This document shows positions 1-3,511 of a stretch of DNA of 64,000 nt, one piece after another. The notes below the pieces were generated by a model. It was not told the origin of the DNA and made no database searches. It saw nothing but the letters and a program-made list of their open reading frames with translations. Within the stretch, counting starts at the first letter, position 1; every line of letters begins with the position of its first letter. This stretch comes from Promethearchaeota archaeon (GTDB lineage: Archaea > Asgardarchaeota > Lokiarchaeia > Sigyniarchaeales > SOKP01). The stretch spans positions 160,001-224,000 of the forward strand of contig JAEOUA010000001.1 in assembly GCA_016839555.1 (NCBI GenBank). The letters run 5' to 3'. A program made the position numbers and the translations under genes.

Positions 1-216
1 TTATTATCAAACATTATTATATCAGGGGGAAGTAGTCAAATTCCTGGATTGAAAAAAAGGATAGAATTTGAATTAAAAAAACATTTTGCAGACAAATTGG
101 AACCCGTGATAAAAGTAATTTCTCCTCAGAGTCGTGAGAATATGGCTTGGATTGGCGCTTCAATCTTATCTTCTCAAGGAAAATTAAAAGAAGGGCTCAA
201 AAATCCTGATTTATAA
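1..216 (+). CDS. Actin-related protein, C-terminal 71 aa (5' truncated by window edge; absent from ORF track)
   Basis: Frame 1 translates LLSNIILSGGSSQIPGLKKRIEFEL...IKVISPQSRENMAWIGASILSSQGKLKEGLKNPDL*, matching the actin adenosine motif (NxVLSGG..PG..R..EL) and the actin C-terminal WIGGSILAS motif. Confidence 0.9.
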   Translation, partial: LLSNIIISGGSSQIPGLKKRIEFELKKHFADKLEPVIKVISPQSRENMAWIGASILSSQGKLKEGLKNPDL

Positions 217-292
217 TAAAATATACTGATCTCTATATTTTGATAATTAATTACAAATTTGAAAGCATAATAAAAATAAAGGAAAAAAAAAA

Positions 293-2866
293 ATGTTGAG
301 AAGCTTTAACCGTGAAGAAAGTTTCTTAAGCGATTTTCAAGAGCGATATCAGCAAGGAAAAGAATTACTTTCTCAAGGAGATCATCATTGGGCAACTCGC
401 TTAATTGTTGACCTTTTTTTTCGTATAGAAAGTGAAGTTTGGATTTCCACTCAAAAAAAGCAACAATTAATTCTAAAATTATCAAAGCTCTGGATAAATT
501 ATATTAATTCTCTTAAAATTAATGGAGAAATTACTGATCTAATTAAATATATTGATGCATATGATAGACTTTTTTCATTTCTTATTCAGATAGAAAATTA
601 TAATATGTTTGAGATTTCTATTAACGAATTATTAAGAGTACTTGTGAAAATGGATGATTTACCAATCTCAAAAATCTCAAAATTTATTAACTCTATTTCT
701 GTAAAATTTATCGAACAAGAAAACTATATTGAATTAATTGAAATACAATTTTTGTTAATTTTTCTTCAAGATTCAATTGTTCATGTAATATATTTTCATG
801 AAATAATGGATTATTTATCTCAAATAATGAAAAAAATTGAACCATCCAAAAGAACACTATTTTTATATATGATCTTAGAAAATGTGAATATTAAATTTGA
901 TCTTAGAGTGGATATTAAAGATTTTGTAGAAAATATAGGTAAAAAAGTAATCCATTTGGTCTTCCCTCAATTAAAAGAATATTTTAGTGTTCTCAATACA
1001 ATTGTCATAAACGAGCGAACATTTAATTCTATTAAAGATGATTTAATCAATTTATTTTCTTATTTAAATAATATTGGTGAATCTTCTTGGACAATAGTTA
1101 TTATTAGAAATCTTTTCTTTTATATTAATCAATTTGAATCATTTGAGGCTGCAATAGAACAAATTCATCAATTCATTGAATTTTCAATTGATAGAAGTCG
1201 GTTAAATGTTGTTTACACCACCTATGATTATCTAGAATCCATTTTATTGACGCAATCAAAGGAGCAATATCATAATAAATTAATTGAATTATGGGCTGAT
1301 GCTTGTAATAATTTTGCTAATATGAAACAAAAAGATTTTTTGTTGTTGGCTATTGAAAGATTGGTTGAATATCTACAAATTCCTGAAAATAAATCAAATA
1401 TATTCCATTACTTACATTCTTGTAATTATTTATGGAAATTTAGATCAATTTTCTTCTCCTTTAAAGAACAAGATTTTTGGAGGATGATTTTTTATAGAGC
1501 GCTTTACCAAGAAGGTAGTATAAATCTTGCCAAAAAAATCATTCCTTTTTTAAATAAGAATCTCCAAGCCTTCGTGCAAGATTGTGAATCCTTATATAAT
1601 AAAGCTCTTGCAGTAAAAAATGAGATCTATACTCTCGAAGAGAAGAAAGATTATTATCTTCAACAAAAAAACCATCATATTGTAAATATGGTTATCAAAA
1701 TTAATTCCATTGGTGAATTCTCATATCGGATTTATTATTCCGATGAAAATATATTAGAAAGCACCTTTAGAAAAGAACATTGGAATGATACATATATTGT
1801 CAAAATATATAATGATCTATTTTTTAATAACGATGGAAAAAGCTATAATTTTAATTTAAAGGAATTTGGAAAAATATTATATCTTTTACTTCCAAAAGAA
1901 ATTCGAGATTATTTTTCTCAATTTAGAACTCAAGTTCTAAGACCTCAAATTTATTTTGTTTTTGATAAAATGACTATTCCCTTTGAATTTATTTATAAAG
2001 AAGGATTTTTTTTATTTGCCTATTCTATCGGGTATAATATAGGTGCCCCCCTCATTATGGGAGCAAAATTCTTAATAGAAAAAGAACATTCTCAAAAAAT
2101 TACAACAGATCATGGATCAGAAGCATTATTAATAGATTCAATTAACGCTTTAGCTCCAAAACATTGGCAGGAAGATGAAAATAGAAAGAAATTATTATAT
2201 GAATTTCCATCAGGAGCCAATGAATTAAACTATATTAAAGAACTATTTGATAATAGACCTGAAATTCAGAATTTAAAAGTATTATTAGGTTCTGAAAGTA
2301 CGAAAGGAACAATTTTAGAAGAAATATCTCAAGGTAATTACCATATAATCTATTTTGTAGGAAATATAATTTTTTCAGAATCTCATCCAAGTTATAGTTA
2401 TTTTATCACAAATGATGAATCTATCCTGAAATTTATAGATCTATTTAATGCGTTGGAAACTCAAGAGAAAAAAGTAAAGCCAATTTTATTCTTCGATACC
2501 CAAATGTTTGATAGAAAAGGAAATAGATTAAAAGAAGCATTAGGATTTTTCTCTGAGATTATTTCAGAATTAAATTTTAATAATGTTAAGGGAGTTATTT
2601 GTAGAAACTATACCGATTTTAATATAGATACCAAAAAAATAATTTCAGAGTTTTTTAACAATCTTCTTGAAAAAAACAGCTTAGGTATTTCTTTGCTTAA
2701 AGCTCGTGAAACTCTTCTACCGAAAATACCAAAACTAATTAAGAAGCAATTGGATGGAGAAAATCCCGTAGATCCAGACATTGATAAAAGTAAACATGTT
2801 AATATTGAGAATAGTCAAAAGTTTTTGAGTTTTCTATTATTTGGTGAGCCATGGAATAAAATATAG
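293..2866 (+). CDS. Alpha-helical solenoid plus C-terminal CHAT (caspase/separase-like) domain, predicted catalytically inactive
   Basis: CHAT hallmarks LKEFGKILYLLLP, IPFEFI, ELNYIKELF, LGISLLKARE, FLLFGEP; catalytic His site reads IYFVGN and Cys site reads LFFDTQ. Confidence 0.75.
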   Translation: MLRSFNREESFLSDFQERYQQGKELLSQGDHHWATRLIVDLFFRIESEVWISTQKKQQLILKLSKLWINYINSLKINGEITDLIKYIDAYDRLFSFLIQIENYNMFEISINELLRVLVKMDDLPISKISKFINSISVKFIEQENYIELIEIQFLLIFLQDSIVHVIYFHEIMDYLSQIMKKIEPSKRTLFLYMILENVNIKFDLRVDIKDFVENIGKKVIHLVFPQLKEYFSVLNTIVINERTFNSIKDDLINLFSYLNNIGESSWTIVIIRNLFFYINQFESFEAAIEQIHQFIEFSIDRSRLNVVYTTYDYLESILLTQSKEQYHNKLIELWADACNNFANMKQKDFLLLAIERLVEYLQIPENKSNIFHYLHSCNYLWKFRSIFFSFKEQDFWRMIFYRALYQEGSINLAKKIIPFLNKNLQAFVQDCESLYNKALAVKNEIYTLEEKKDYYLQQKNHHIVNMVIKINSIGEFSYRIYYSDENILESTFRKEHWNDTYIVKIYNDLFFNNDGKSYNFNLKEFGKILYLLLPKEIRDYFSQFRTQVLRPQIYFVFDKMTIPFEFIYKEGFFLFAYSIGYNIGAPLIMGAKFLIEKEHSQKITTDHGSEALLIDSINALAPKHWQEDENRKKLLYEFPSGANELNYIKELFDNRPEIQNLKVLLGSESTKGTILEEISQGNYHIIYFVGNIIFSESHPSYSYFITNDESILKFIDLFNALETQEKKVKPILFFDTQMFDRKGNRLKEALGFFSEIISELNFNNVKGVICRNYTDFNIDTKKIISEFFNNLLEKNSLGISLLKARETLLPKIPKLIKKQLDGENPVDPDIDKSKHVNIENSQKFLSFLLFGEPWNKI

Positions 2867-2986
2867 CCATATCATTCTAAAGTTTTAATATCATAAACAA
2901 ATATTGTTTATAATTATTAAAAATAACTTTAAATATAATTTATTTATTCTATTAATATAGAATCATAAAAGGAGTAAAGAAAAAAA

Positions 2987-3511
2987 TTGTCTGACAGATT
3001 ATTAGAACTCAGAATCGAAAATCAGAAATTAAAAAATCAAGTTGAACAATTAGAAAATAAAATATTATCGTTGGTAGGAAATATTGAAATTGAAGTATCA
3101 CAAAAAGGTTTATTAAATGAAGAGATATTAATTTTATTTGAAAATACAGAAAAAAATTTAAATATTTTAACGCCTTATATCGATAAATTCTATAATAATG
3201 AGCTAAAAAGATTAAGCCAAAAAGGTATTAATATATTGGTTATTATTCATGATAGAAGTTTAATTCCTAATAAATATAGAATATTTTATGATGAATTAAA
3301 AACAAAATCAAACATTCATATTGTAAATAATCCAAATATAAAATGTCTTGTAATATTTAATGAAAAAAATGGTATTTATTCTGGAGGCGCTCTGGATAAA
3401 GATGTATTAGATAAATCAATTTTAATTGAAACTAAAATAAATGAAGCAACTAAACTCTATAAAATCAAGCAAATCTATAATCTTTTCCTCCCATCATTTA
3501 TGAGAAAATAG
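2987..3511 (+). CDS. N-terminal coiled coil plus phospholipase D-like domain with degenerate HKD motif
   Basis: LRIENQKLKNQVEQLENKI heptads; LNILTPYID, GINILVI and NIKCLVIFNEKNGIYSGGAL align with the PLD pattern ISSPY..GV.V.II..HAK..I.D...iGS.Nl but lack the His; TTG start with AAGGAG upstream. Confidence 0.65.
   Translation: MSDRLLELRIENQKLKNQVEQLENKILSLVGNIEIEVSQKGLLNEEILILFENTEKNLNILTPYIDKFYNNELKRLSQKGINILVIIHDRSLIPNKYRIFYDELKTKSNIHIVNNPNIKCLVIFNEKNGIYSGGALDKDVLDKSILIETKINEATKLYKIKQIYNLFLPSFMRK

What the first reader, a model, noticed from the sequence alone, without database searches (positions are those of the whole stretch)
1..3511. Candidate new system: actin-related protein + dead CHAT/separase-like solenoid + dead PLD coiled-coil protein
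Seen: three co-directional genes with 76- and 120-nt gaps; the first (missed by the ORF track) ends in a clear actin C-terminus, the second is a helical solenoid plus CHAT domain, the third a coiled coil plus PLD fold. Both enzyme folds lack their catalytic residues. Known: TPR-CHAT proteases and PLD nucleases are typical immune effectors, and separase is a solenoid-CHAT protein. Inference: a module in which conflict-system folds were repurposed as non-catalytic scaffolds or regulators of an actin-related protein. I know of no description of this arrangement.
Basis: partly seen in the sequence, partly recalled or inferred. Interest (0 to 1): 0.82.

Follow-up and report, generated by a model that had tools for sequence, protein, structure and literature searches.

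The report
Asgard actin relative with dead-protease partner
In one order of Asgard archaea, a fast-evolving relative of actin is always encoded next to a separase-like protein that has lost its cutting site and is predicted to cap one end of it, which gives the first concrete, testable partner for an archaeal actin relative of unknown function.

Summary
Observation confirmed, but the unit is a four-gene cluster: an upstream coiled-coil gene (CC, outside the window), a 379-aa actin-related protein (ARP), an 857-aa solenoid-CHAT pseudo-protease (His→Asn, Cys→Gln; 0/82 keep either) and a coil plus dead PLD. It is single-copy in most searched genomes of one Lokiarchaeia order, including P. syntrophicum MK-D1 and L. 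ossiferum (ARP = UYP47647). The tight pair is ARP+CHAT: adjacent in 37/37 intact loci, lost together about three times, and predicted to bind (score 0.71, best control 0.00; mark reached by 58/80 solved and 2/110 mismatched pairs), with the N-terminal helices capping the ARP's pointed end. The ARP keeps nucleotide-binding residues but lacks Q137/H161; its filament faces are not Lokiactin-like. CC and PLD persist without the pair and are at least 11 and 30 times more abundant in a published proteome, so a fixed three-protein complex is doubtful. Immune origin is unsupported: the nearest active CHATs sit in non-defence loci, and dead PLD folds occur in TrmB/TrmBL2. Best reading: a low-copy, non-polymerising ARP–pseudo-protease adaptor; its client is unknown. 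I found no paper describing it. The scan found this cluster before in other genomes.

The parts
1..1 (+). Placeholder coordinates: the fourth gene (CC, 231 aa; disordered N-terminal half, conserved C-terminal helices of ~110 aa) lies outside the window at G000:C4:158297-158992 (L001:13297-13992), 84 nt before the ARP
   Evidence: no convincing Pfam family; orthologues UYP47648 and DSAG12_01478
1..216 (+). 3' end of the 379-aa actin-related protein (whole gene G000:C4:159077-160216, starting 924 nt before the window). Keeps D11, G13, K/R18, G156, K213, G301; lacks Q137 and H161; D154 mostly Asn; D-loop replaced by a family-specific insert (residues 42-63) predicted to dock on the pseudo-CHAT
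   Evidence: orthologue of L. ossiferum UYP47647 and MK-D1 DSAG12_01479
293..2866 (+). 857-aa alpha-solenoid + beta sheet + CHAT (separase/Csx29 architecture) pseudo-protease
341..706 (+). N-terminal helices (residues 17-138) predicted to cap the ARP's pointed end; this part is not shared with the active 1012-aa relative
2363..2365 (+). Asn691 codon, in the place of the catalytic His
2501..2503 (+). Gln737 codon, in the place of the catalytic Cys
2987..3511 (+). 174-aa protein: coiled-coil helix (2-32) plus one PLD/Nuc-fold domain without the HKD motif (degenerate site at residues ~117-135, nt ~3335-3391); TrmB/TrmBL2/FilR1 middle-domain and FAM83-like
   Evidence: orthologues UYP47645 and DSAG12_01481

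Best explanation
The ARP and the pseudo-CHAT form a low-copy 1:1 complex that acts as an adaptor, not as a filament or an enzyme. The ARP is a monomeric, probably nucleotide-bound but hydrolysis-deficient subunit whose D-loop has become a docking site; the N-terminal helices of the solenoid sit on its pointed end and block polymerisation there. The dead protease cleft, with Asn and Gln kept under selection, most likely binds a client peptide instead of cutting it, and the ARP serves as the structural or allosteric input, as eukaryotic monomeric ARPs do in their complexes. The pair sits inside an older CC-PLD gene pair whose products are more abundant and can work without it; CC or PLD may be the clients or a platform. 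Shown: folds, lost catalytic residues, gene order, co-loss, divergence of filament faces. Predicted: the ARP-CHAT contact. Inferred: nucleotide binding, monomeric state, peptide binding by the cleft, any contact with CC or PLD.
For: ARP directly before full-length CHAT in 30/30 family loci and 7/7 intact loci of two other families; ARP-CHAT gap median 25 nt, at most 40 nt in 20/28, against 105 nt and 0/28 for CHAT-PLD. Joint loss in genus g14 (three genomes, including single-contig H. repetitus), genus g17 (two genomes) and a 3.3-kb deletion in G023; the tree nests g14 among carriers, so this is loss. Complex model: score 0.71, best of 3 controls 0.00; the mark was reached by 58 of 80 solved complexes and 2 of 110 mismatched pairs; runs agree in at least 95% of contacts, partner pLDDT at least 83; interface CHAT 17-138 with ARP 42-63, 75-80, 218, 258-261, i.e. 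actin subdomains 2 and 4. No solved sequence homologue of the CHAT protein exists to be recalled. Q137 0/27, H161 0/27, D154 Asn in 20/27, but G13, G156, K213, G301 27/27. Identity to Lokiactin is lower on barbed, pointed and lateral faces (20, 21, 17%) than overall (26%). ARP is 29% identical between this genome and MK-D1, Lokiactin 90%. In the L. ossiferum proteome PLD is at log2 19.31 and CC at 17.85, while ARP and CHAT are not among the rows above 14.41 (id mapping).
Against: The contact is a model, and its interface is only weakly more conserved than background (p 0.10 over the solenoid, 0.04 within 5-160, 0.66 on the ARP). CHAT residues 595-857 were not in the model. No client is identified, and peptide binding by the dead cleft is untested. 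K18 is lost in the MK-D1 clade and K336 mostly acidic, so even nucleotide binding may be gone in some members. Abundance data come from one species in stationary phase, a truncated table and an id mapping that I inferred. The G023 deletion has a 16-nt overlap at the junction and could be an assembly artefact.
Confidence: 0.5

Rival explanations
1. The ARP-CHAT complex is a pointed-end cap, anchor or nucleator for Lokiactin filaments, analogous to Arp2/3 or the Arp11 end of dynactin: the pointed end is covered and the free barbed face seeds or terminates a filament.
For: Pointed end covered and barbed face free in the model; at least ~150-fold rarer than Lokiactin (21.69 vs below 14.41), as expected of a nucleator; G168/Y169 equivalents kept; a gelsolin-like gene lies near the cluster in 13 of 41 loci.
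Against: Barbed face only 20% identical to Lokiactin, below the 26% average, whereas another Loki ARP type reaches 46% against 37%; barbed set not more conserved than the rest (p 0.36); C-terminal tail lost; lost in H. repetitus and others that keep Lokiactin; none of the four ids occurs in the held, most-enriched part of the Lokiactin co-IP table (informative only for CC and PLD).
Confidence: 0.2
2. The four proteins form a chromatin or transcription regulatory complex, with the ARP acting like nuclear Arp4/5/6/8 and the coil-PLD protein acting as a TrmB/TrmBL2-type dimerisation or ligand-sensing module.
For: PLD protein matches TrmBL2 and TrmB over coil plus domain, FilR1_middle in 9/34 and TrmB in 4/34 members; an AbrB-ACT regulator gene precedes CC in 21 loci; hydrolysis-dead ARP.
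Against: No DNA-binding domain found in any of the four proteins; the PLD fold matches nucleases and FAM83 equally well or better; AbrB-ACT is not adjacent in MK-D1 or L. ossiferum.
Confidence: 0.12
3. The genes are only neighbours: conserved order reflects shared expression, and the predicted ARP-CHAT contact is a false pass.
For: The tool's own test passed 7 of 44 blind neighbours; interface conservation is weak; MK-D1 transcript levels (195, 175, 170, 250 RPKM) are unremarkable and like those of flanking genes.
Against: Repeated joint loss of exactly ARP+CHAT, overlapping or abutting reading frames in the distant families, controls at 0.00, and an interface built from two family-specific novelties (ARP insert 42-63; CHAT 1-156, absent from the active relative).
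Confidence: 0.12
4. It is a defence or conflict system in which the ARP is a decoy or sensor for a viral protein and the dead folds relay the signal.
For: Nearest solved architectures are Csx29, SAVED-CHAT and DdvA; fast ARP evolution; a methyltransferase/restriction-like gene follows the cluster in many family members.
Against: No catalytic effector in the cluster; single copy in 118/134 family genomes; trees follow genera; no PADLOC family except a weak DrmC fold hit; active relatives lie in non-defence contexts.
Confidence: 0.06

Closest known systems
Asgard actin-related proteins (the three non-Lokiactin homologues of Ca. Lokiarchaeum ossiferum; PMC9834061)
   Same: The ARP is the orthologue of UYP47647.1: neighbours are UYP47648 and UYP47645 and the paper's qPCR primers match the locus. 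Reported there as less transcribed than Lokiactin.
   Different: The paper gives no partner, gene context or function; the accession occurs in no other searched paper; MK-D1's DSAG12_01479 is not among the three actins in the ESP table of PMC7015854.
TPR-CHAT proteases Csx29 (Craspase), DdvA, and separase
   Same: Helical solenoid, beta sheet/pseudo-protease region, caspase-fold domain; an N-terminal helical domain docks on a partner (Csx29 on Cas7-11: own knowledge).
   Different: All keep the His-Cys dyad (DdvA: PMC11506125); here both residues are replaced in 82/82. No CRISPR, no securin-like partner shown; the partner is an ARP.
Crenarchaeal arcade cluster (crenactin plus arcadins)
   Same: An archaeal actin homologue encoded with dedicated partners, one of which acts on it (PMC12050087).
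   Different: Crenactin polymerises and arcadin-2 depolymerises it; here the actin homologue looks non-polymerising and the partners are unrelated pseudo-enzymes.
Eukaryotic monomeric or capping ARP modules (Arp4/8 and Arp7/9 with HSA helices; dynactin Arp11; Arp2/3)
   Same: Divergent, hydrolysis-poor ARP held by a dedicated helical partner (own knowledge).
   Different: No homology of the partners; HSA helices bind the barbed end whereas this partner is predicted on the pointed end; no evidence of filament or chromatin contact.
Non-catalytic PLD-fold domains (TrmB/TrmBL2/FilR1 middle domain; FAM83 DUF1669; MITD1) and pseudo-caspase scaffolds (Raptor N-terminus, c-FLIP)
   Same: Same folds without catalytic residues; precedents for dead folds used as binding modules (own knowledge).
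   Different: No HTH or other domain; stand-alone coil+PLD; never described beside an ARP in the papers searched.

Membership tests
Actin/ARP family (PF00022) | Actin fold with phosphate-1, phosphate-2 and adenosine motifs in order | tested here: met
   Pfam E 3.5e-44; collinear alignment to actin
Lokiactin / filament-forming actin | Hydrolysis residues Q137, D154, H161 | tested here: not met
   0/27, 5/27, 0/27; the Q137 register is uncertain by one or two residues, but Gln is absent from the window and MK-D1 clade in either
Lokiactin / filament-forming actin | Conserved longitudinal and lateral contact faces, D-loop, C-terminal tail; ~85-90% identity across Lokiarchaeia | tested here: not met
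   17-21% identity on contact faces; 24% overall to the genome's Lokiactin; separate clade
Lokiactin / filament-forming actin | Polymerisation in vitro | not testable with these tools
   needs purified protein
CHAT / separase / Csx29 proteases | Solenoid plus caspase-fold architecture | tested here: met
CHAT / separase / Csx29 proteases | His-Cys catalytic dyad | tested here: not met
   Asn691 and Gln737; 0/82 His, 0/82 Cys; active relative keeps both in the same columns
Type III-E Craspase or other defence system | Cas7-11, CRISPR array, sensor or catalytic effector in the locus | tested here: not met
   none among the recurring neighbours of 41 loci; PADLOC blank but for weak DrmC
PLD/Nuc nucleases (PLDc_2) | PLD fold | tested here: met
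   PLDc_2 in 23/34 members; NucT Z 18.1, rmsd 2.2, 138 aligned
PLD/Nuc nucleases (PLDc_2) | HxKxxxxD and GSxN motif | tested here: not met
   no His in 34/34; Lys in 17/34 in the more favourable register
TrmB/TrmBL2 regulators | Coil followed by non-catalytic PLD-like domain | tested here: met
TrmB/TrmBL2 regulators | N-terminal winged-HTH DNA-binding domain | tested here: not met
   all 34 members are 171-199 aa and start with the coil
Arp2/3-like or dynactin-like filament end complex | ARP barbed face compatible with the cell's filament actin | tested here: inconclusive
   sequence argues against, but no ARP-Lokiactin model or assay was run
Operon | One transcript over the four genes | not tested

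The most novel reading that the evidence does not exclude
Lokiarchaeia independently built a dedicated ARP complex from pseudo-enzymes: a separase-like protease lost its active site, gained an N-terminal domain that caps a hydrolysis-dead ARP, and together with the CC and dead-PLD proteins forms a filament-end or positioning machine for the Lokiactin cytoskeleton, an archaeal parallel to Arp2/3 or dynactin.
Probability: 0.2. Interest if true: 0.9.

Novelty: new variant of a known kind. Interest (0 to 1): 0.66.

Why it matters
Asgard genomes carry several ARPs besides Lokiactin and none has a known function or partner. How actin duplicates turned into non-polymerising subunits of complexes is an open question of eukaryogenesis. 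This cluster names one partner with a predicted interface, exists in both cultured Lokiarchaeia (MK-D1 DSAG12_01478-01481; L. ossiferum UYP47648-47645), has natural knock-outs (H. repetitus and others) and has an active protease relative for comparison, so it can be tested directly. It would also be an archaeal case of a separase-like protein turned into a scaffold.

Tried and rejected
1) WH2-like motif in the disordered half of CC: a helix of the type LxxLLxxI followed by G and LK is seen in H. repetitus-like and L. ossiferum members, but the LK part is missing in the main family, the motif was not picked up in MK-D1, and WH2 is not among the top Pfam matches; kept only as a weak lead. 2) ESM Atlas for the CC helical domain gave no usable hit; Pfam hits are generic coiled-coil matches. 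3) Promoter/terminator scan uninformative: bacterial consensus, counts at shuffle level. 5) search for related loci with the CHAT alignment failed for lack of conserved words. 6) Sequence search of PDB with the CHAT profile found nothing significant. 7) Interface conservation test was weak or null. 8) Upstream gelsolin, roadblock and NAD(P)HX-repair genes are not part of the core: near the cluster in about a third of loci only. 9) The downstream 163-aa and 991-aa methyltransferase genes are convergent and variable. 10) Matches of the CHAT profile in other orders cover the CHAT domain only or a different, active protein. 11) No complex job was available for PLD or CC.
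Full report
Observation. The window is G000:C4:160001-224000. Three + strand frames lie at 1-216, 293-2866 and 2987-3511 with gaps of 76 and 120 nt. The first continues upstream into a 379-aa gene that is an actin homologue (Pfam E 3.5e-44; PDB hits actin and Arp2). Further upstream on the same strand are a 231-aa coiled-coil gene (CC), an AbrB-ACT gene, a roadblock, a gelsolin-like gene and an NAD(P)HX repair enzyme.

The CHAT protein. 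Pfam CHAT is hit above cut-off. The AlphaFold model from 82 sequences (pLDDT 85.6) shows a solenoid at 2-444, a beta sheet at 463-496 and a caspase fold at 607-857; Foldseek and VIA rank Csx29, SAVED-CHAT, DdvA and separase first. The catalytic His column holds Asn in 80/82 and the Cys column Gln in 70/82, never His or Cys. A 1012-aa solenoid-CHAT found in a genome of another order of the class keeps His850 and Cys898 in these columns and is homologous over residues 157-853 (HHalign E 1.3e-20); it has a different N-terminus and sits among acetyltransferase and metabolic genes. One source labels it with a bacterial name, so its host is not certain. A Ras-CHAT fusion with an intact His motif occurs in the same order. 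So the protein is a true pseudo-protease whose nearest active relatives are not in defence loci.

The PLD protein. Helix 2-32 is followed by a PLD fold; members hit PLDc_2 (23/34), FilR1_middle (9) and TrmB (4); structural matches are NucT, Nuc, FAM83, Zucchini, TrmB, TrmBL2, MITD1. No member has the catalytic His. Dead PLD folds are thus already known in archaeal regulators, and UniRef names the orthologues TrmB C-terminal domain proteins.

The ARP. With actin numbering, D11, G13, K/R18, G156, K213 and G301 are kept, while Q137 and H161 are absent in 27/27 and D154 is Asn in 20/27. The D-loop is replaced by a longer family-specific insert and the C-terminal tail is missing. It is 29% identical to its MK-D1 orthologue where Lokiactin is 90% and forms its own clade, with long-branch caution. 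Its filament-contact faces are less Lokiactin-like (17-21%) than its average (26%), unlike another Loki ARP type (46% barbed against 37%). In L. ossiferum it is UYP47647.1, shown by neighbouring accessions and by the qPCR primers of PMC9834061 matching the locus; that paper reports lower transcription than Lokiactin and gives no partner.

Distribution and linkage. The CHAT profile matches 118/134 genomes of the family, 7/14 and 1/1 of two other families of the order, 0/4 of a fourth, nearly always once. PLD and CC profiles are likewise confined to the order, apart from distant PLD-like genes. The ARP lies directly before the CHAT in 30/30 family loci and 7/7 intact loci of other families, including P. 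syntrophicum MK-D1. The order CC-ARP-CHAT-PLD is the rule. In five genomes of two genera, among them the single-contig H. repetitus, CC and PLD are directly adjacent and neither ARP nor CHAT orthologue was found; the CC+PLD tree places H. repetitus with MK-D1 and L. ossiferum (95/90), so this is loss. G023 shows a 3.3-kb deletion that removes the ARP and CHAT residues 1-667 between intact CC and PLD (possibly an assembly artefact). Conversely G019 (100% complete) has CC-ARP-CHAT and no PLD match, and G053 has PLD elsewhere. ARP-CHAT gaps are short (median 25 nt; overlapping or 1-5 nt in distant families), CHAT-PLD gaps never under 57 nt. These genomes are kin, so the counts are not independent; the number of loss events is about three.

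Predicted contact. CHAT 5-594 with ARP 8-372 scored 0.71 against a best control of 0.00; this mark was reached by 58 of 80 solved complexes and 2 of 110 mismatched pairs; the three runs agree in at least 95% of contacts and partner pLDDT is at least 83. The model supports binding, it does not show it. The interface joins CHAT 17-138 to ARP 42-63, 75-80, 218 and 258-261, which map to actin subdomains 2 and 4, the pointed end. Both sides are family-specific additions. Interface columns are only slightly more conserved than background. Two earlier scan reports on other genomes had also predicted a pointed-end contact; I knew this before choosing the pair, and chose the fragment from my own conservation list.

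Expression. MK-D1 RPKM values are 195, 175, 170 and 250 for the four genes, Lokiactin 501 (PMC7015854 supplement): transcribed, at an ordinary low level. For L. ossiferum I mapped the proteome ids of bioRxiv 10.1101/2025.11.30.690169 using the paper's anchors and two tRNA genes, one on each side of the cluster; a gelsolin 172 genes on and the histone as id 03971 fit. PLD (03963) is at 19.31, CC (03966) at 17.85, Lokiactin at 21.69, and ARP (03965) and CHAT (03964) are not in the held rows, which end at 14.41. If the scale is log2 abundance, the pair is at least 30-fold below PLD, 11-fold below CC and 150-fold below Lokiactin in stationary phase. None of the four ids occurs in the held, most-enriched part of the Lokiactin co-IP, whose reported hits are profilin, gelsolins and an ARF GTPase.

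Mechanism. The evidence splits the cluster into an abundant, older CC-PLD pair and a rare, dispensable ARP-CHAT pair. For the latter the best reading (0.5) is a non-polymerising heterodimer: the solenoid's N-terminal helices cover the pointed end of a hydrolysis-dead ARP, and the dead protease cleft, whose Asn and Gln are conserved, binds a client. A role as Lokiactin cap or nucleator (0.2) fits the geometry and low copy number but not the diverged barbed face. A chromatin or transcription complex (0.12), mere neighbourhood (0.12) and defence (0.06) are less likely.

Comparison and novelty. The ARP is a known but uncharacterised Asgard ARP; the CHAT and PLD proteins have the folds but fail the catalytic tests of their families. 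The cluster works, by inference, like eukaryotic monomeric-ARP modules and is arranged like the crenactin arcade cluster, without being a member of either. Searches of the paper library found no description; subscription papers are not covered. The scan itself has reported this cluster from several other genomes. Verdict: real, conserved, apparently undescribed, testable in cultured strains; new variant of a known kind; interest 0.66.

Noticed in passing
window 33230-34732 (+): A second actin-related gene in this window: 500 aa, actin domain with a double zinc ribbon insert, like MK-D1 DSAG12_03244.
   Followed up: partly
L075 (G000:C1:435578) and L076 (G000:C7:297272): This genome has two Lokiactin paralogues, 82% identical; the second groups with a similar copy in G028. 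Six actin-family genes in all.
   Followed up: partly
L077 (G000:C10:130548-131663): Another ARP type keeps its barbed face closer to Lokiactin than its average (46% vs 37%): a better candidate for a filament nucleator or cap than the ARP studied here.
   Followed up: partly
L049:1533-4571; P0089-P0092; L135: A 1012-aa solenoid-CHAT with intact His-Cys dyad, homologous to the pseudo-CHAT over residues 157-853, with an unassigned N-terminal domain, next to two GNAT genes.
   Followed up: partly
L050:7707-9371: Ras-family small GTPase fused to a CHAT domain with intact His motif; cluster member labelled Helarchaeota.
   Followed up: no
L032:10623-10790 (-): The L. ossiferum ARP frame has no ATG/GTG/TTG at the expected start; a non-canonical start or truncated annotation is likely.
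   Followed up: no
L138:3640-3700 (G023:C20): Deletion of ARP and CHAT 1-667 with a 16-nt overlap at the junction; the remaining CHAT C-terminus is still an open 208-codon frame.
   Followed up: partly
L058:8817-10892 and 13 other loci: A ~700-aa protein with a C-terminal vWA domain sits between the roadblock and AbrB-ACT genes in 14 relatives but is absent from this genome's locus.
   Followed up: no
L001:11379-13226 (just upstream of the window): Gelsolin-like, roadblock and AbrB-ACT genes run into the cluster on the same strand; AbrB-ACT precedes CC in 21 loci, gelsolin is near in 13.
   Followed up: partly
L048:9192-9791, L051:7890-8483, L047:7813-8373: Distant coil+dead-PLD genes in another order, two of them beside a small longin/DENN-like gene and a long coiled-coil gene, without CC, ARP or CHAT.
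   Followed up: no
window 4269-7244 (-), 7500-8105 (+), 10032-13892 (-): N6-adenine methyltransferase of restriction-modification type, an MglA/Arf-like small GTPase, and a gyrase A gene that appears to carry an intein with a homing-endonuclease motif (intein read from sequence only).
   Followed up: no
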